Sequence record: OR339795
DNA: 64,000 nt
DNA from: Escherichia phage phi456
Strand: one strand, 5' to 3'
Shown here: positions 1-6,688 of the stretch, piece by piece
Layout: each line of letters begins with the position of its first letter
Numbering within the stretch: the first letter of the stretch is position 1
Made by a program: the position numbers and the translations under genes
Notes under the pieces: generated by a model
Databases searched by the model: none
What the model was told of the DNA's origin: nothing
The model's input: only the letters and a program-made list of their open reading frames with translations

Positions 1-24
1 GTAAAAGCATCCTTGCTCCTTAAT

Positions 25-636
25 TCAAAGAGAAAAGCTAAAGCCCAGAAGGGAAGCCAAAGAACTTGAGGATTGGTTAAACGTGCTGTGCAATGCGAAG
101 GTCATTGGGAATGACTTAAATTCAGTAACCTGATCTCGCGCATAGGTGACATCGCCGGTAGTGACCGGGAATACCGTCATCTCATTTTCCAGTTTGGTTA
201 AGCCGGAAGACAGCAACCGATAAATACGCACATTGAGCAAATATTTAGACGGTATATTCCCGGTACCGTCCGGATTGATCACCCGACTTTTTGCCGTCTT
301 AAACCAGTCCAAAACGAGGCCATCAACGGTATCCCTGACCATCATTGTTATCTGCCCAGGCGAACGCTCCGTTGGTTGAAGGATATTCCCTCCGCCGATT
401 TTAATCGTTTCATATTCGATGCTGTAATCGTGGTAGGTAATGTCTTTGGCAAAGAAGTCTGCCCCCTCCAGTCCATCAACTTCGACAGAGAACTGCCATC
501 CTTGCGCGAACAGCATTTTGTTCATGATGATTGACGTCAGCTTACCAACTTCCCGCTCACCAACGCCGGAGCCAAATAATGTCGTCGTTAATGCCGAAGA
601 TACATAAGACTTTACTGAAGCAACATTAAGCCCCAT
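25..636 (-). CDS. hypothetical phage protein, possibly a tail component
   Basis: 203-aa ORF ending the minus-strand gene run left of immI; no motif recognised. Confidence 0.3.
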   Translation of the reverse strand: MGLNVASVKSYVSSALTTTLFGSGVGEREVGKLTSIIMNKMLFAQGWQFSVEVDGLEGADFFAKDITYHDYSIEYETIKIGGGNILQPTERSPGQITMMVRDTVDGLVLDWFKTAKSRVINPDGTGNIPSKYLLNVRIYRLLSSGLTKLENEMTVFPVTTGDVTYARDQVTEFKSFPMTFALHSTFNQSSSSLASLLGFSFSL

Positions 637-646
637 ATCAGCCCCC

Positions 647-1252
<606 letters not shown>

Positions 1253-1293
1253 AGTTGTCATTTGTGACAGTATGCTCGCAATCGTAGTGATTA

Positions 1294-1833
1294 CTACCAC
1301 CAACTGCTAGCTTTCTTCTCTCTAGCTTTTCCTTCGCTTTGCAGTAAATCTTTACTTCCTGTAGAAATATTTCTATTTGCATCAGCCTCAGACTGAATTA
1401 CATCTGTCTTAGCTGCTCTCTCCTTCAACTCCTGCTCTATAAAATCGTTTTCTCGCTGGACACGAGCCGCTTTTGCTTGCAGTTCGAGCTTCATGCTTTC
1501 GAGTTGCAGCTTGCGAAGCTCATCCTCATAAGCTTGATCTCGCTTCTTGTCATTTGCTAGCTCGGCTTCTCGTTTCGCTCTACGTTCATTTTCTGCAGCA
1601 ACACGCTGTTTTTCGCGTGCAGCAGCGGCAGATGCTGCTTTTTCTCTTCTAATACGTTCAGCTTGTGCTTGTTGGCGAATAAGTTCTTTTCTGGCATCCT
1701 CAGCTTGCTGCTCTTTAGCTCGCCCTTCATTTTCCGCTTGAGCAATAGCAGCAATTTGACTTTGCAACGAGTTAGCCAAGGCAGTGCCTACACTAAACGT
1801 AGAAAAGATTAGAAATAAAATAATTTTATTCAT
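1294..1833 (-). CDS. secreted coiled-coil protein with TolA-like K/E/A/R-rich helical region
   Basis: N-terminal signal-peptide-like segment MNKIILFLIFSTFSVGTALA followed by a long charged helical repeat region. Confidence 0.5.
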   Translation of the reverse strand: MNKIILFLIFSTFSVGTALANSLQSQIAAIAQAENEGRAKEQQAEDARKELIRQQAQAERIRREKAASAAAAREKQRVAAENERRAKREAELANDKKRDQAYEDELRKLQLESMKLELQAKAARVQRENDFIEQELKERAAKTDVIQSEADANRNISTGSKDLLQSEGKAREKKASSWW

Positions 1834-1836
1834 AAA

Positions 1837-2358
1837 TTATTTCTTTTCTGGACAAGTAGCATTTGGCTGAATTCGAGTTTCATTATCTTTAGTTGAAATA
1901 AGCACAGCAAGCCCCGTTGTAAACTGGCATGCTTTACCAACTTGAGTTGAAGTGAACACCTTAGTTCCTTCTTTATAAGTCAGTGAAACACCTTCAACAA
2001 TTGTTTTATCACTAACCAAAGAACCAGCCGCTGCACCAAGAGCCGCACCACCAGTACCGCCAGCTACAGCACCCAGTGTCGATGTGCCTTTAACATTATA
2101 ACCGGCAACGCCCCCAGCAACAGCTCCCAGTACCGCACCAAATGTCTGTGCCGCTTCTTTATTAGCTTTATTATCAACTTTCACTTTAGCTGGAAGCACA
2201 GAGATAATATTGACTGTCTTTGTTTCCTGCTTCGAATTCAATTGAGCGGTATCATAAACATCGGCAGCATAATCAGCACCGCTAGATTGACACCCAGAAA
2301 GAAGAATTGCAGATACAACAAGAGCGCATAAAGTATACTTTTTAGACATAAGAATCAT
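1837..2358 (-). CDS. lipoprotein with glycine-zipper domain
   Basis: Lipobox LLSGC after a hydrophobic N-terminus; GxxxG/AxxxG-rich segment GAVLGAVAGGVAG...GAVAGGTGGAALGAAAG. Confidence 0.55.
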   Translation of the reverse strand: MILMSKKYTLCALVVSAILLSGCQSSGADYAADVYDTAQLNSKQETKTVNIISVLPAKVKVDNKANKEAAQTFGAVLGAVAGGVAGYNVKGTSTLGAVAGGTGGAALGAAAGSLVSDKTIVEGVSLTYKEGTKVFTSTQVGKACQFTTGLAVLISTKDNETRIQPNATCPEKK

Positions 2359-2639
2359 CCCAGAAAAACAAAAACCGGCGAGAAGTTACCACGAGAACGG
2401 AAAGTAAACAAGAATACTCCCATTGACTTATATCAATTAATCAACTTTTTATAAGCTATCCCTAACTTATTGTGTATAGCTGAAAAGTCAGAGACAAGTT
2501 CACCATCTGCATTATTTCTTAAGTTAATAGTTTATTGCTAACTTAATTTATGCATCGACTATTGATATCCATCTTAAAGTTACAATATCCCTCTGCATTA
2601 TTTTTCATCACAAATAATATATCTATTGCACGACACTAA

Positions 2640-2656
2640 TCTGCTCTAATAAATTT
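2640..2656 (+). promoter_or_regulatory. C1 repressor operator-like site (Op51-like) upstream of immI
   Basis: tgctctaataaattt matches 15/17 of the P1 C1 operator consensus ATTGCTCTAATAAATTT. Confidence 0.6.
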
Positions 2657-2825
2657 GTATTTTTAAGTCGCGAATGCTATCTTTTCGCATCATATTGACC
2701 TTTTAATCGTTCAGGCTTATAGTTTCGCCGTCGTAGCAAATTCTGCGACCGGGTTTAGCAGCCTGAATGATTGTGCGGACAGCCGCAGATATCCGATATT
2801 GCGGTATTTTTGTGTCCGTAAAACC

Positions 2826-2905
2826 GCGTTACGCCCAAATTATGGTGGGGCGTGATGGGGAGGCTTCGGCCTGCTGGTTTCACAATCGCCAGTCTGCTAA
2901 CCCCG
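2826..2905 (+). ncRNA. c4: candidate c4-like antisense RNA region of immI
   Basis: Position between Op51-like site and icd; stem cgccc/gggcg (2832-2852) and aggc-UUCG-gcct tetraloop hairpin (2861-2872); boundaries not determined. Confidence 0.25.
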
Positions 2906-2970
2906 TCACGTCCTGCCACCTGTTTAGCAGCGGGTAGCAGGTTGTTAAACCTGATTGTGAGGCCGTAACT

Positions 2971-3192
2971 ATGGTTAATGCCAATCCTTGCGCACGCCAA
3001 GAATTCATCTGGCGTTTCTATTCCTGCAAAAAACACCACTATCACTTCGTCATCGCAGCAACAGAAGACGAAGCACGCTCTCAATTGCCTGATGGCCCCT
3101 GCATTTTTACTGCCCGTTTTTCAACTAACTCGCGCAATTCACTTAGTTACTGGAACCTCCCCTTCTCTGCCGACGTTCAGGGGGGTTTATGA
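2971..3192 (+). CDS. icd: Icd-like small protein of immI
   Basis: 73-aa ORF whose stop overlaps the ant start (ATGA), as in P1 icd-ant. Confidence 0.55.
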   Translation: MVNANPCARQEFIWRFYSCKKHHYHFVIAATEDEARSQLPDGPCIFTARFSTNSRNSLSYWNLPFSADVQGGL

Positions 3193-4223
3193 AAAAACCT
3201 CTCGTCACCCGTAATGAAATAGCCGAAGCGATCGCCCTGCATACAACCTGTATGCCGACACGGGAGATCCCCGGCGCAATTGCTAACTATTTCATGATAA
3301 CCAGACGTTTTTATACCCGAACAGATAAGGCTGTGATCAGCAGGCTACTGATAGCCGAGATCAGGGATTATTTGATTGAACAAGGACGTCTACGTTACGC
3401 AACAGTGGCAGCAGAAATGAGAAAGGAGGCACATAGAATGACCGGTAATAATTTAAATGTTGAAAAACCAGCACCTGTTGCTTCAGCTACGCCAGCACCA
3501 GCCCTGAATGTCATCTCCAACACCGGAGACACAATCGACAGCCAAACATTGTTGAAGATGGTCAATGAGGCACGGAAATTATGTAGCGAAAAACCAGTTC
3601 GCAACAATGATTTCATTGCCAGAGTTAAGGATGAGCTTGAAGGAGAAACCTACGAAATTTTCGTAGGTCAAAAAAACGGCGCAGAAATAGATATTATAAC
3701 CATGACCTACAAACAAGCCCTGCGAGTTGCCGCGCGCGAGTCAAAAGCGGTCCGCCGTTCGCTGATCGACAAACTGGAAGAATTACAGCAGGCAAACTCC
3801 CCTACCCCATCGATCCCCCAGACATTACCAGAAGCCCTACGCCTGGCTGCCGAGTTAGCAGAACAGAAAATGCAGTTGGAACAACAGCTGGTGGCCGCAG
3901 CCCCTAAAGTCGATTTTGCCGACCGGGTATCAGTGGCCAATGGAATCCTGATCGGGAACTTTGCAAAGGTCGTTGGACTTAAGCAAAACGCCCTTTTCTC
4001 ATGGTTGCGCCAGAACGGCATTCTCATGGCTTTTGGAGCGCGCAAAAACGTACCGCGCCAACAGTACATCAACGCCGGGTATTTCACGGTGAAAGAGGTG
4101 GTGCTGGATGATGAAAATGGCTACCAGATACGGCTGACGCCCCAATTAACGGGTAAAGGCCAGCAGTGGTTAACTCGCAAGCTACTTGATGCTGGTTTGT
4201 TAAAACCAGTAGCAATAGGTTAA
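3189..4223 (+). CDS. ant1: antirepressor Ant1 (ANT/KilA-C C-terminal domain)
   Basis: 344 aa; C-terminal PKVDFADRVS...GNFAKVVGLKQN...GYFTVKE motif of phage antirepressor C-domain; immI synteny. Confidence 0.7.
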   Translation: MKKPLVTRNEIAEAIALHTTCMPTREIPGAIANYFMITRRFYTRTDKAVISRLLIAEIRDYLIEQGRLRYATVAAEMRKEAHRMTGNNLNVEKPAPVASATPAPALNVISNTGDTIDSQTLLKMVNEARKLCSEKPVRNNDFIARVKDELEGETYEIFVGQKNGAEIDIITMTYKQALRVAARESKAVRRSLIDKLEELQQANSPTPSIPQTLPEALRLAAELAEQKMQLEQQLVAAAPKVDFADRVSVANGILIGNFAKVVGLKQNALFSWLRQNGILMAFGARKNVPRQQYINAGYFTVKEVVLDDENGYQIRLTPQLTGKGQQWLTRKLLDAGLLKPVAIG

Positions 4224-4234
4224 CAAAAGAAAAA

Positions 4235-4261
4235 ACCTGCCAGCTAACTGGCAGGTTTCTG
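4235..4261 (+). terminator. rho-independent terminator after ant
   Basis: Hairpin acctgccag-ctaa-ctggcaggt followed by tttct. Confidence 0.55.
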
Positions 4262-4300
4262 AGCAGATCGTCCAACCCGATCTGGATCGAGTCAGAAAAA

Positions 4301-4317
4301 TTTGCTCTAATAAATTT
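4301..4317 (+). promoter_or_regulatory. C1 operator-like site (Op53-like) in front of kilA-repL
   Basis: tttgctctaataaattt, 16/17 match to the C1 operator consensus, about 70 bp upstream of kilA. Confidence 0.65.
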
Positions 4318-4386
4318 CGTTTTCTAAGTGCAAAGAATCACCATTTCGAGCTGGTGATTGAAGGTTGATGCAAATTTGGAGAAAAA

Positions 4387-5187
4387 ATGCAACAAACATT
4401 CAATGCGGATATGAATATATCAAACCTTCATCAAAATGTCGATCCTTCAACCACTCTGCCCGTTATTTGTGGTGTTGAAATTACGACCGACCGCGCTGGC
4501 CGTTACAACCTTAATGCTCTACACAGAGCGAGCGGACTCGGTGCCCATAAAGCGCCAGCTCAATGGCTAAGAACGCTGTCAGCTAAACAGCTCATCGAAG
4601 AGCTTGAAAAAGAAACTATGCAGAATTGCATAGTTTCGTTCGAAGGCCGTGGCGGCGGCACTTTTGCCCATGAATTGCTCGCTGTGGAGTACGCAGGCTG
4701 GATTTCTCCCGCGTTTCGGCTGAAGGTAAACCAGACATTTATCGACTATCGAGCTGGAAGATTACAACCTGCTATTCCGCAGAGTCTCCCTGAAGCTCTC
4801 CGTTTGGCTGCCGACCTGGCAGAGCAAAAGCAACGGCTGGAGCAAAAAATGCTTATGGATGCACCTAAAGTCGAATTCGCCGAACGCGTTGCTACCGCCA
4901 GCGGGGTTCTAATCGGCAACTATGCCAAAGTGCTCGGCCTGGGCCAAAACTATCTCTTCACTTGGTTGCGTGATAACGGAATTCTGATCGCAACCGGTGA
5001 ACGCAGGAACGTCCCCAAACAAGAATACATATCCCGTGGGTACTTCACCCTCAAAGAAACCGTGATCGATACAAGCAATGGAAGCAGGATTTCTTTCACG
5101 ACTCGTATAACCGGTAAAGGTCAGCAGTGGCTTATGAAGCGATTGCTTGATGCTGGTGTGCTGGTACCTGTCGCGGCAACGCGCTAA
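4387..5187 (+). CDS. kilA: KilA (KilA-N domain plus ANT C-domain)
   Basis: 266 aa; C-terminal ANT-like domain; sits directly upstream of a RepL-sized ORF, as in the P1 lytic replicon. Confidence 0.65.
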   Translation: MQQTFNADMNISNLHQNVDPSTTLPVICGVEITTDRAGRYNLNALHRASGLGAHKAPAQWLRTLSAKQLIEELEKETMQNCIVSFEGRGGGTFAHELLAVEYAGWISPAFRLKVNQTFIDYRAGRLQPAIPQSLPEALRLAADLAEQKQRLEQKMLMDAPKVEFAERVATASGVLIGNYAKVLGLGQNYLFTWLRDNGILIATGERRNVPKQEYISRGYFTLKETVIDTSNGSRISFTTRITGKGQQWLMKRLLDAGVLVPVAATR

Positions 5188-5216
5188 CAAACGTAGTAAG
5201 AACCACCAGCATTGTA

Positions 5217-6062
5217 ATGCTGGCTAAAGTCACTTTCCTGAGCTGTATAACGATGAGCGATTTTACTTTTTCTGGCTATGAATTGGCCTGCTTTGTAACA
5301 CACTCCGGTCTATCCCGTAGCGCCGGGCATATCCTGTCGCAATGTGCAAATCTCGCGGCAACAACCAGTGAATACTTCATTCACAAGCCTCACCGCCTGA
5401 TCGCGGCAGAAACTGGTTATAGCCAATCAACCGTCGTTCGTGCATTCCGTGAAGCTGTAAACAAAGGAATTCTGTCTGTAGAGATTGTTATCGGCGATCA
5501 CCGTGAACGTCGCGCTAACCTGTACCGGTTTACACCATCATTTTTGGCCTTCGCACAACAAGCCAAAAATGCGCTGATTGAAAGCAAATTAAAGATCTCT
5601 TCAGCGGCAACCAAGGTTAAAGCTGTTCTCGCTAAGACATTGGCTTTATTTAATTTTTTATCCACACCCCCATGTCAAAATGATACCCCCTCCCCCTGTC
5701 AGGATGACGTGGCAATAAAGAATAAGAAGTCACAAGTTAAAAAAACAGAAAGATCAGTTTCCGGCGGTGCCGGAACGACCAGACTCAAAAAATTGACTTC
5801 ATGGATCGCTGAGGCAAAAGCAAAGGCTGACAATCTGCGGTTATCCAAAAAACGCGCTCAAAAACATGAGTTCAAGCAGAAAGTAGAGGCGACAGCGCGG
5901 AAATATGCTTACCTGAAGAACAAGCGTTCTCCTGATATTGGCGGGGTATCAAACTTCGATAATCTGCCGCATTGCATGACGGTAAACGAAGCTCTTAATG
6001 CGGTTTTAGCCAAAAATAAAGATAACGAACAATGGGGTATACCGGCAGGATTCAGAGGGTGA
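5217..6062 (+). CDS. repL: lytic replication protein RepL
   Basis: 281-aa ORF immediately after kilA; size and position as P1 repL. Confidence 0.65.
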   Translation: MLAKVTFLSCITMSDFTFSGYELACFVTHSGLSRSAGHILSQCANLAATTSEYFIHKPHRLIAAETGYSQSTVVRAFREAVNKGILSVEIVIGDHRERRANLYRFTPSFLAFAQQAKNALIESKLKISSAATKVKAVLAKTLALFNFLSTPPCQNDTPSPCQDDVAIKNKKSQVKKTERSVSGGAGTTRLKKLTSWIAEAKAKADNLRLSKKRAQKHEFKQKVEATARKYAYLKNKRSPDIGGVSNFDNLPHCMTVNEALNAVLAKNKDNEQWGIPAGFRG

Positions 6063-6112
6063 TAGATTGCTCTAATCTGGAGTCACCTGGCGTTTTCAGT
6101 TTGAGGTCGGAG

Positions 6113-6358: not shown

Positions 6359-6439
6359 TACAATCGTTGCGGGTGCTTGAGGCTATCTGCTTCAGGCATT
6401 ACCCGAAAAGCAGATAGAAGAAAGCCCCAGATAACATTA

Positions 6440-6510
6440 CGCGTCCTGCAAGACGCTTAACATTAATCTGAGGCAATATCTATGCTTAGCATACGTAGAT
6501 TAGCCTCTTA
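6440..6510 (-). ncRNA. sok: candidate Sok-like antisense RNA
   Basis: Placed by analogy to hok/sok loci, antisense to the mok start region; boundaries unverified. Confidence 0.3.
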
Positions 6511-6688
6511 CCGACCAAAAGGTCAAGGAGAAGCAGGCTATGAAGCAGCAAAAAGCGATGTTAATCGCTCTGATCGTCATCTGTTTAACCGTCATTGTGA
6601 CGGCACTGGTAACGAGGAAAGACCTCTGCGAGGTACGAATCCGAACCGGCCAGACGGAGGTCACTGTCTTCACAGCCTACGAATCTGA
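6482..6688 (+). CDS. mok: Mok-like reading frame overlapping hok
   Basis: 68-aa ORF overlapping the hok frame in a different register. Confidence 0.5.
   Translation: MLSIRRLASYRPKGQGEAGYEAAKSDVNRSDRHLFNRHCDGTGNEERPLRGTNPNRPDGGHCLHSLRI

What the first reader, a model, noticed from the sequence alone, without database searches (positions are those of the whole stretch)
1294..2358. Lipoprotein plus secreted TolA-like coiled-coil protein next to immI
Immediately leftward of the Op51-like operator, two envelope-targeted genes sit where P1 (from memory) carries the sim superimmunity genes, but they do not look like Sim. One is a glycine-zipper lipoprotein, the other a signal-peptide protein whose body is a K/E/A/R-rich helical repeat resembling TolA domain II. 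An exported TolA mimic plus lipoprotein is a plausible superinfection-exclusion device against Tol-dependent phage or colicin entry.
Basis: partly seen in the sequence, partly recalled or inferred. Interest (0 to 1): 0.55.

Follow-up and report, generated by a model that had tools for sequence, protein, structure and literature searches.

The report
Phage-plasmid copy of yfgH–yfgI envelope pair
The two genes are real and envelope-targeted, but they are a phage-plasmid-borne copy of the bacterial yfgH–yfgI outer-membrane module already annotated in phage P7, not a TolA mimic, and any role in excluding other phages is untested.

Summary
Two minus-strand genes, 1837-2358 and 1294-1833, encode a glycine-zipper lipoprotein and a signal-peptide, all-helical, K/E/A/R-rich protein. 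They fill the slot where P1 carries simABC, between late promoter LPsit and the C1 operator of immI.

They are 99.3% identical in DNA to phage P7 upf50.5 and upf50.0. They are paralogues of the E. coli K-12 operon yfgH-yfgI (67% and 47% identity).

The lipoprotein family matches the solved SlyB ring lipoprotein over its full length. K-12 YfgH is an experimentally described outer-membrane stabiliser. The second protein is Pfam DUF5384.

The TolA resemblance is compositional only. It scores no better than shuffled sequence, and hhalign gives 4% probability. It also falls in the least conserved part of the protein. Neither protein resembles SimA, SimB or SimC.

New here:
- The two genes are adjacent in 50 of 50 species examined.
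- Temperate elements have captured the pair repeatedly, including two diverged alleles in this same P1 slot under strong purifying selection.
- All three alleles of the slot encode exported proteins.

The most likely function is envelope-stabilising lysogenic conversion. Superinfection exclusion remains a live but untested rival.

The parts
1837..2358 (-). YfgH-like (SlyB-family) glycine-zipper outer-membrane lipoprotein, 173 aa; equals P7 upf50.5
   Evidence: ORF. 100% protein identity to P7 Upf50.5. 67% identity to K-12 YfgH, E = 6e-73. The family profile matches SlyB, PDB 7ojf, at E = 2.4e-9 over the full length.
2290..2358 (-). Lipoprotein signal peptide and lipobox LLSG|C23 (Cys codon 2290-2292), with Gln at +2
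   Evidence: Read from the translation. C23 is invariant and G22 nearly invariant in 42 homologues. K-12 YfgH fractionates with the outer membrane (preprint).
2023..2139 (-). Glycine-zipper helical hairpin, residues 74-112
   Evidence: G74, G78, G82, G104, G108 and G112 are invariant or nearly so. Glycine-zipper Pfam families hit in 34, 25 and 12 of 42 members. The AlphaFold2 model shows helices 64-88 and 95-113, at low confidence.
1294..1833 (-). YfgI-like DUF5384 periplasmic protein, 179 aa; equals P7 upf50.0
   Evidence: Pfam DUF5384 at 147.8 bits against a cut-off of 25. 47% identity to K-12 YfgI, E = 9e-46. AlphaFold2 predicts a single helix 3-178 with pLDDT 87.
1774..1833 (-). Sec signal peptide of the DUF5384 protein, residues 1-20, cleavage ALA|NS
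   Evidence: Read from the sequence. The same 60-nt sig_peptide feature is annotated in the P7 record.
1294..1548 (-). Conserved C-terminal half of the DUF5384 protein, residues 96-179, ending in the aromatic pair WW
   Evidence: Conserved columns cluster at residues 95-170. Most relatives end in WF, FF or WW. Four of 179 carry a transmembrane helix there instead.
2359..2639 (-). AT-rich upstream spacer (29-34% GC), presumed to hold the cassette's own promoter. One weak sigma-70 match at 2625-2597. A conserved palindrome lies near 2421-2438.
   Evidence: Composition. The promoter scan finds 3 sites against 3.1 expected, so it is not above chance. Patches are shared with a second P1-like allele.
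2640..2656 (+). C1 repressor operator Op(c4)/Op51; right boundary of the swapped cassette
   Evidence: Two mismatches to the operator consensus; 9 such sites in the window against 0.32 expected. P7 annotation. Homology to P1 resumes at 2642.
1245..1264 (-). Late promoter LPsit; left boundary of the swapped cassette
   Evidence: P7 and P1 annotations transferred by alignment. Homology to P1 ends at 1265.
1266..2641 (.). The exchangeable accessory cassette; P1 has simC-simB-simA here
   Evidence: blastn of the window against the P1 locus. The sim region is variable region 4 of 8 in P1-like phage-plasmids (PMC9603915).

Best explanation
This is a two-gene envelope module carried as accessory cargo by a P7-type P1-family phage-plasmid. 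It is a paralogue of the chromosomal yfgH-yfgI operon.

Inferred mechanism:
1. Both genes are transcribed leftward from a promoter in the AT-rich spacer next to the C1 operator. They are translated as a coupled pair, 3 nt apart.
2. The lipoprotein is exported, lipidated at Cys23 and sorted to the outer membrane. There its glycine-zipper hairpin assembles into SlyB-like oligomeric rings. Such rings stabilise lipid and outer-membrane-protein domains under envelope stress.
3. The DUF5384 protein is secreted. It is a helix of about 159 residues whose conserved C-terminal half works with the lipoprotein.

The net effect is lysogenic conversion: a second, phage-controlled dose of an outer-membrane stabiliser that alters or hardens the lysogen's envelope.

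Shown here: homology, export signals, strict gene pairing, purifying selection and the cassette swap with sim.
Inferred: expression in the lysogen, ring assembly, contact between the two proteins and the phenotype.
For: - Identity to P7 upf50.5 and upf50.0.
- 67% and 47% identity to K-12 YfgH and YfgI, which sit at pdeF-yfgG-yfgH-yfgI-guaA.
- The family profile matches SlyB, PDB 7ojf, over its full length at E = 2.4e-9.
- K-12 YfgH is outer-membrane localised. Its deletion gives SDS+EDTA sensitivity and loss of outer-membrane proteins. Its overexpression rescues depletion of LptD or BamA (bioRxiv 10.64898/2025.12.22.696046; PMC3219608).
- The lipoprotein gene lies immediately upstream of the DUF5384 gene in 50 of 50 species-level loci across Gamma-, Beta- and Alphaproteobacteria.
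- dN/dS is 0.05-0.09.
- The cassette is at least 99% identical in 168 PLSDB plasmids and in 164 of 5,426 complete E. coli genomes.
- The pair has been captured independently by other temperate elements.
Against: - There are no expression data for the prophage state. The only sigma-70 match is no better than chance.
- The phage copy is only 67% and 47% identical to the characterised K-12 proteins, so its specificity may differ.
- YfgI has no defined function. The one reported phenotype is nalidixic-acid sensitivity (PMC3536626).
- The position in the sim slot, and the fact that all alleles of that slot encode exported proteins, fit an exclusion role equally well.
- The lipoprotein structure model was poor (pLDDT 49), so ring formation rests on sequence homology to SlyB alone.
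Confidence: 0.55

Rival explanations
1. Superinfection or surface exclusion device. The ring lipoprotein and its periplasmic helical partner block adsorption, DNA transit through the periplasm, or colicin or conjugative entry. This would functionally replace Sim, much as TraT works for F-like plasmids.
For: - The cassette occupies exactly the sim slot.
- All three alleles of that slot encode proteins with signal peptides: SimA/B/C, this pair, and a 215-aa plus 158-aa pair.
- Temperate elements have captured the pair repeatedly at typical moron positions beside tail-fibre genes.
- 40 of 42 family members give sub-threshold Pfam TraT hits. hhalign against F-plasmid TraT gives 86% probability.
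- TraT is a decameric outer-membrane lipoprotein with an alpha-helical barrel, and plasmids co-opted it from chromosomal homologues on several occasions (PMC11733297).
Against: - No exclusion phenotype is known for any YfgH, YfgI or SlyB protein. No PADLOC model matches.
- The module is a core chromosomal operon in many genera that lack any mobile context.
- The TraT similarity is below Pfam's cut-off and is largely confined to the glycine-zipper hairpin.
- From general knowledge, P1 adsorbs to the LPS core, which a periplasm-facing ring would not obviously mask.
Confidence: 0.25
2. Exported TolA mimic. The helical protein would decoy or jam Tol-dependent phage or colicin import by imitating TolA domain II.
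For: The composition is similar: the mature chain is 55% Ala, Glu, Lys and Arg. Both proteins are predicted to form long helices. At about 24 nm if straight, the helix is comparable to the width of the periplasm. Four relatives carry a C-terminal membrane anchor.
Against: - The alignment to TolA is no better than for shuffled sequence.
- hhalign gives 4% probability.
- None of 42 members hits a TolA Pfam family.
- The TolA-like stretch is the variable spacer, not the conserved part.
- There is no equivalent of TolA domain III, which from general knowledge is the domain bound by phage g3p and several colicins.
Confidence: 0.03
3. Lysis accessory resembling a two-component spanin: an outer-membrane lipoprotein plus a periplasmic coiled-coil that act at the end of the lytic cycle.
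For: There is a superficial resemblance, a lipoprotein plus a helical periplasmic protein. The genes have the same orientation as the adjacent late operon, with no terminator before LPsit.
Against: - The helical protein has a cleavable AXA signal peptide, not an N-terminal anchor.
- The lipoprotein is 173 aa with a SlyB-like fold, not a small o-spanin.
- The gene order is reversed relative to Rz/Rz1.
- The pair is chromosomal and not phage-linked in most species.
- It lies outside the phage's lysis genes.
Confidence: 0.03
4. Passenger DNA with no selected function in the phage-plasmid, merely filling a recombination hot spot.
For: The sim region is one of eight low-GC hypervariable regions of P1-like elements (PMC9603915). 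sim is dispensable (mentioned in PMC10695390).
Against: - Both ORFs are intact at 99% identity or more in 168 plasmids.
- A second allele in the same slot has saturated synonymous divergence yet dN/dS of 0.05-0.06.
- Other temperate elements have captured the pair independently.
Confidence: 0.07

Closest known systems
Phage P7 upf50.5 / upf50.0 (GenBank AF503408); also in RCS47, SJ46 and JL22
   Same: The cassette DNA is 99.3% identical and the lipoprotein is 100% identical. The position between LPsit and Op(c4) is the same. P7 already annotates both with signal peptides as an 'outer membrane lipoprotein' and a 'membrane protein' similar to E. coli K-12 proteins.
   Different: Nothing of substance; this is the same cassette. 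Elsewhere the window is about 98% identical to P7, so it is a P7-type relative rather than P7 itself.
E. coli K-12 yfgH-yfgI operon (b2505-b2506)
   Same: The gene order, tight spacing, protein lengths (172 and 179 aa), lipobox, glycine zipper, two conserved Cys, signal peptide and conserved C-terminal DUF5384 motifs are all the same.
   Different: Identity is only 67% and 47%, and synonymous sites are saturated, so this is not a recent capture from E. coli. The upstream region is unrelated. The pair is carried on a phage-plasmid rather than next to guaA.
SlyB (PDB 7OJF/7OJG), a stress-induced outer-membrane ring lipoprotein
   Same: The family profile gives a full-length match at E = 2.4e-9. 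The lipobox, strand, glycine-zipper hairpin and beta domain follow the same order.
   Different: The relationship is a distant paralogue. slyB has no DUF5384 partner gene. YfgH and SlyB do not cross-complement, and their suppressors map to different pathways (preprint).
TraT, the surface-exclusion and serum-resistance lipoprotein of F-like plasmids
   Same: It is an outer-membrane lipoprotein with a Gly/Ala-rich helical hairpin that forms an oligomeric alpha-helical barrel. It is a chromosomal family co-opted by mobile elements. Sequence similarity is weak.
   Different: The Pfam score of 23.1 bits is below the cut-off of 31. TraT is not found in the PDB profile search at E up to 10. TraT is about 70 residues longer with a different extracellular part. 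TraT has no DUF5384 partner.
P1 SimA/SimB/SimC superimmunity proteins
   Same: They occupy the same slot with the same orientation, and all are proteins with signal peptides.
   Different: There is no detectable sequence similarity; the best hit is E = 0.23 against a seven-sequence database.
TolA domain II
   Same: It is a long Ala/Lys/Glu-rich helix in the periplasm, so composition and general shape are alike.
   Different: It is not homologous. The window protein has no N-terminal anchor and no TolA domain III. The similar region is the unconserved spacer.

Membership tests
YfgH / SlyB-type glycine-zipper outer-membrane lipoproteins | Lipobox with an invariant Cys and no Asp at +2, the outer-membrane sorting rule | tested here: met
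   The lipobox is LLSG-C23-Q. C23 is invariant in 42 homologues.
YfgH / SlyB-type glycine-zipper outer-membrane lipoproteins | Two-helix GxxxG glycine-zipper hairpin | tested here: met
   G74/G78/G82 and G104/G108/G112 are conserved. The window protein scores 18.2 bits on Pfam PF05433, below the 24.2 cut-off. 34 of 42 family members match at E <= 0.01.
YfgH / SlyB-type glycine-zipper outer-membrane lipoproteins | Full-length homology to YfgH and to the solved SlyB | tested here: met
   67% identity to K-12 YfgH over 171 aa, E = 6e-73. Profile against PDB 7ojf gives E = 2.4e-9, covering 9-162 of the query and 6-153 of SlyB.
YfgH / SlyB-type glycine-zipper outer-membrane lipoproteins | Oligomeric ring in the outer membrane | not testable with these tools
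For YfgH itself, rings are only predicted.
DUF5384 / YfgI | Match to Pfam PF17358 above the gathering score | tested here: met
   147.8 bits against a cut-off of 25, E = 3e-43. 42 of 42 aligned members match.
DUF5384 / YfgI | N-terminal Sec signal peptide and a gene immediately downstream of a yfgH-like gene | tested here: met
   The signal peptide is residues 1-20. Adjacency holds in 50 of 50 genomes and in the window.
TolA | N-terminal transmembrane anchor (domain I) | tested here: not met
   The N-terminus is a cleavable AXA signal peptide, read from the sequence and annotated in P7.
TolA | Homology of the helical body to TolA domain II | tested here: not met
   Composition-corrected score 20 bits, E = 0.12. 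Uncorrected 50.4 bits against shuffles of 45.1 +/- 3.8. hhalign probability 4%.
TolA | C-terminal globular domain III | tested here: not met
   No TolA or TonB Pfam hit in 42 of 42 members. The model is a single helix to the C-terminus.
P1 Sim superimmunity proteins | Sequence similarity to SimA, SimB or SimC | tested here: not met
   The best BLASTP hit is 19 bits, E = 0.23.
TraT | Match to Pfam PF05818 above the gathering score | tested here: not met
   23.1 bits against a cut-off of 31. 40 of 42 members give sub-threshold hits. hhalign gives 86% probability, mainly over the hairpin. Remote relatedness is possible; membership is not.
Two-component spanin (Rz/Rz1 type) | An inner-membrane-anchored coiled-coil protein plus a small outer-membrane lipoprotein within a lysis cassette | tested here: not met
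   The signal peptide is cleavable. The lipoprotein is 173 aa and SlyB-like. The location is outside the lysis genes. The pair is chromosomal in most species.
Known anti-phage defence systems (PADLOC-DB) | Match to any PADLOC model | tested here: not met
   No match for either protein at E <= 1.

The most novel reading that the evidence does not exclude
YfgH-type ring lipoproteins and their obligate DUF5384 partner may form a trans-periplasmic assembly that temperate phages and phage-plasmids repeatedly co-opt as an entry or exclusion barrier. This would be the phage counterpart of plasmid TraT.

The partner is a helix of about 24 nm. Its C-terminal aromatic pair is replaced by a true membrane anchor in some relatives.

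On this reading the P1 'sim slot' is a dedicated site for interchangeable periplasm-acting exclusion modules, of which this pair is one allele.
Probability: 0.2. Interest if true: 0.65.

Novelty: new member of a known kind. Interest (0 to 1): 0.33.

Why it matters
Any phenotype of this cassette would affect about 3% of sequenced complete E. coli genomes, because it sits on widespread P1/P7-type phage-plasmids that also carry resistance genes.

- If it hardens the outer membrane, it is an unrecognised lysogenic-conversion trait. It could affect tolerance to detergent, bile, chelators or antibiotics.
- If it excludes phages or colicins, it would be the first exclusion function for a SlyB/YfgH-type ring lipoprotein. 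It would also show that the sim slot holds interchangeable periplasmic exclusion modules.

Independently of the phage, strict yfgH-yfgI co-occurrence gives a concrete lead on YfgI. The current YfgH literature does not mention it.

Tried and rejected
- TolA homology was rejected.
- Similarity to Sim proteins was rejected.
- The spanin idea was rejected on topology, gene order and chromosomal distribution.
- PADLOC gave no hit.
- Single-sequence PDB searches gave nothing useful. The DUF5384 profile against PDB gave only noise.
- The AlphaFold2 model of the lipoprotein had pLDDT 49, so no fold search was run on it.
- Foldseek of the single-helix DUF5384 model against PDB gave no match.
- Literature searches for DUF5384 and for upf50.0/upf50.5 returned no papers. 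The P1 genome paper could not be retrieved.
- Phage TL-2011b and dozens of IMG/VR 'prophages' first looked like further phage carriers. Their copy is the host's own yfgG-yfgH-yfgI flank beside a prophage integrated near guaA. L033 is 98.7% identical to K-12, so these were discounted.
- The promoter scan found no more sites than chance, and no terminator follows the pair on its own strand. Expression therefore remains inferred.
- The 409-aa relative P0334 was checked as a possible YfgH-YfgI fusion. It is a coiled-coil extension instead.
- The L149 plasmid-like contig has no megablast match among deposited phages, so it cannot be called a phage-plasmid.
Full report
**1. What is there**

The window starts in the tail-tube and sit late operon of a P1-family phage-plasmid and runs into immI.
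- pmgC/tubA lies at 647-1213 on the minus strand.
- C4 antisense RNA lies at 2838-2923.
- icd, ant1, kilA and repL follow.

Between them, on the minus strand, are the two ORFs of the finding at exactly the stated coordinates: 1837-2358 (173 aa) and 1294-1833 (179 aa). They are separated by 3 nt (TAA TTT ATG).

The first has the lipobox LLSG-C23 with Gln at +2. It also has a GxxxG/GxxxG hairpin at residues 74-112 and two further invariant cysteines.

The second has a 20-residue signal peptide ending ALA|NS. Its mature chain is 55% Ala, Glu, Lys and Arg. AlphaFold2 predicts this chain as one continuous helix with mean pLDDT 87.

It has no tandem repeat and no marked heptad periodicity. It is therefore a low-complexity charged helix rather than a repeat.

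**2. Identity**

The 1.6-kb region is 99.3% identical to phage P7 (AF503408). There the genes are already annotated, with signal peptides:
- upf50.5: 'outer membrane lipoprotein of unknown function; similar to putative outer membrane lipoprotein of Escherichia coli'.
- upf50.0: 'membrane protein of unknown function'.

The same cassette is in RCS47, SJ46 and JL22.

Alignment with P1 shows homology over window 1-1265 (98.4%) and 2642-6076 (96%). The segment 1266-2641 therefore replaces P1's simC-simB-simA. The limits are the late promoter LPsit (1245-1264) and the C1 operator Op51/Op(c4) (2640-2656).

Neither protein resembles SimA, SimB or SimC.

**3. Family**

The second protein is Pfam DUF5384 (147.8 bits against a cut-off of 25).

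Looking up close homologues on their contigs led to the E. coli chromosome. There the pair lies at pdeF-yfgG-yfgH-yfgI-guaA.
- The window lipoprotein is 67% identical to K-12 YfgH.
- The helical protein is 47% identical to K-12 YfgI.

A profile of 42 lipoprotein homologues matches the solved SlyB ring lipoprotein (PDB 7ojf/7ojg) over its whole length at E = 2.4e-9.

Experimental data on YfgH:
- A 2025 preprint places it in the outer membrane.
- It is induced by outer-membrane damage.
- Deletion gives SDS+EDTA sensitivity and loss of outer-membrane proteins.
- Overexpression rescues LptD or BamA depletion.
- It is predicted to form SlyB-like rings, yet it is functionally distinct from SlyB (bioRxiv 10.64898/2025.12.22.696046).
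- An earlier genetic-interaction study linked yfgH to lptD and outer-membrane integrity (PMC3219608).

YfgI has only a nalidixic-acid sensitivity phenotype (PMC3536626). The S. Typhi orthologues srgIL are SdiA-regulated (PMC11619404). The YfgH preprint does not mention yfgI.

**4. The TolA idea**

- With composition correction, BLASTP against E. coli TolA gives 20 bits (E = 0.12 against seven sequences).
- Without correction it gives 50.4 bits. Two hundred shuffles of the mature sequence give 45.1 +/- 3.8, with a maximum of 55.5.
- hhalign of the family profile against TolA gives 4% probability over 15 columns.
- None of 42 members hits any TolA or TonB Pfam family.
- The TolA-like composition lies in residues 36-95. 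This is the least conserved, length-variable part of the family.
- The conserved part is 96-179 (DKKRDQxYEDELR ... TDVIQSEADANRN.S.G ... SWW/WF). It has no TolA counterpart.
- There is no N-terminal anchor and no TolA domain III.

The resemblance is therefore one of composition and general shape. It is not homology and not specific mimicry.

**5. New comparative results**

(a) The pair is obligate. In 50 of 50 species-level genome loci found with the DUF5384 profile, a YfgH-type lipoprotein gene lies immediately upstream on the same strand. These loci span Enterobacterales, Pasteurellaceae, Vibrionaceae, Aeromonadales, Pseudomonas, Acinetobacter, Shewanella, Nitrosomonas, Parvibaculum and Commensalibacter.

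(b) The P7-type cassette is common and intact.
- It is present in 168 PLSDB plasmids at 99% identity or more.
- It is present in 164 of 5,426 complete E. coli genomes, almost always on plasmids of about 90-100 kb.
- By comparison, 137 plasmids carry a full simABC, and about 128 more carry only the simA end.

(c) The simA-end plasmids carry a third allele. It encodes a 215-aa protein with a SimA-like signal peptide and a 139-158-aa protein with its own signal peptide. All three alleles of this slot therefore encode exported proteins. The literature lists sim as variable region 4 of 8 in P1-like phage-plasmids but does not describe what replaces it (PMC9603915).

(d) A second, diverged yfgHI-like allele (84% and 80% amino-acid identity) sits in the same slot of another P1-like contig. 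Synonymous sites are near saturation and dN/dS is 0.05-0.06. Its flanks are about 99% identical to the window. The slot has thus been filled at least twice by this kind of module, under purifying selection.

(e) Other temperate or mobile contexts:
- A 73-74% allele lies beside the tail-fibre assembly gene at the end of a myovirus-type prophage in E. coli. In Salmonella it lies between a phage ORF6N gene and the tail-fibre genes.
- A 73% allele lies next to J-lom-stf-tfa of a lambdoid prophage, at a contig edge.
- A 63% allele lies beside a Rep3 replicon on a Salmonella contig of about 100 kb.
- An 86% allele lies in an IS-rich chromosomal island.

(f) In a scan of 1.84 billion representatives the DUF5384 family has 317 clusters. 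Nearly all are single-domain proteins of 140-240 aa.
- Most end in an aromatic pair (WF, FF or WW) 28-30 residues after the TDVIQSEAD motif.
- Four of 179 instead continue into a hydrophobic helix followed by a Lys/Arg-rich tail. With the N-terminal signal peptide, this is the topology of an inner-membrane anchor.
- This suggests, but does not show, that the C-terminus sits at a membrane surface. If so, the helix of about 24 nm could span the periplasm.

**6. TraT**

- The window lipoprotein scores 23.1 bits on Pfam TraT, below the cut-off of 31.
- 40 of 42 family members give such sub-threshold hits.
- hhalign against F-plasmid TraT gives 86% probability, mostly over the Gly/Ala hairpin.
- TraT is a decameric outer-membrane lipoprotein with an alpha-helical barrel. 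Plasmids recruited it from chromosomal homologues more than once (PMC11733297).

This is a useful analogy and a possible remote relationship. It is not family membership.

**7. Mechanism**

The best-supported reading is lysogenic conversion by an envelope module.
- The lipoprotein goes to the outer membrane and forms SlyB/YfgH-type assemblies that stabilise the membrane.
- The secreted helix is its obligate partner.
- The phage-plasmid supplies an extra copy with its own regulation.

I put this at about 0.55.

An exclusion role is the main rival, at about 0.25, and the two are not mutually exclusive. It rests on the sim slot, on exported proteins in every allele, on recurrent capture next to tail-fibre genes and on the TraT analogy.

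TolA mimicry, a spanin-like lysis role and neutral passenger DNA are each unlikely.

Weak points:
- There are no expression data, and the one sigma-70 match (2625-2597) is no better than chance.
- No terminator separates the pair from LPsit.
- The lipoprotein structure model was too poor to use.
- No multimer prediction was available.

**8. Novelty and score**

- The genes are already annotated in P7 and belong to known families. The TolA interpretation fails.
- What is new is the strict yfgH-yfgI pairing, the repeated recruitment by temperate elements, and the allelic relationship with sim.
- This is a new member of a known kind, with modest interest (0.33).
- The exclusion-module reading would be considerably more interesting if experiments confirmed it.

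Noticed in passing
window 6371-6545 (+): Rfam finds a sok antitoxin RNA (RF01794, 114 bits against a gathering score of 59) just downstream of repL. This implies a hok/sok-type toxin-antitoxin locus where the P1 locus has Op55 and rlfA.
   Followed up: no
window 1837-2358 and public records (RefSeq P7 NC_050152, RCS47 NC_042128, SJ46 NC_031129, TL-2011b NC_019445; phrog_1277): The YfgH-like lipoprotein is labelled 'DNA methyltransferase' in PHROGs (phrog_1277) and in several RefSeq phage records. This is an evident annotation error that has propagated.
   Followed up: partly
L032:7389-8648 (P1-like IMG/VR contig): In a P1-like relative with the diverged allele, an extra 419-aa gene is inserted between the DUF5384 gene and LPsit. 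It has an N-terminal hydrophobic segment and a DUF559/REase_MTES_1575-like nuclease domain, and may be a defence gene.
   Followed up: partly
L145:2022-3140 and L146:1573-2748 (third allele of the sim slot): About 128 P1-like plasmids keep only the simA end. The slot then holds a 215-aa protein with a SimA-like signal peptide and a weak, sub-threshold PTP-like phytase hit. It also holds a 139-158-aa signal-peptide protein with no family match.
   Followed up: partly
L014 (phage TL-2011b, JQ011317) and many IMG/VR loci L033, L036-L094: Deposited or predicted prophage records include the host's yfgG-yfgH-yfgI at one end. A prophage family integrates next to yfgI/guaA and its boundaries overrun into host DNA, which gives a false impression of phage carriage.
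   Followed up: yes
window about 2421-2438: A palindrome, TTGAcTTATATCAA on the plus strand, lies about 75 nt upstream of the lipoprotein start. It is shared with the diverged P1-like allele and may be a regulatory site.
   Followed up: no
P0266, P0284, P0307, P0332 (DUF5384 relatives): Four of 179 representatives replace the terminal aromatic pair with a transmembrane helix and a basic tail. This hints that the family's C-terminus is membrane-associated.
   Followed up: partly
window 2640, 4301, 33551, 33600, 35692, 46753, 48417, 48500, 50538: Nine C1-operator-like sites (3 mismatches or fewer to ATTGCTCTAATAAATTT) occur in the window, against 0.32 expected by chance. This is consistent with a complete P1-type immunity circuit.
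   Followed up: no
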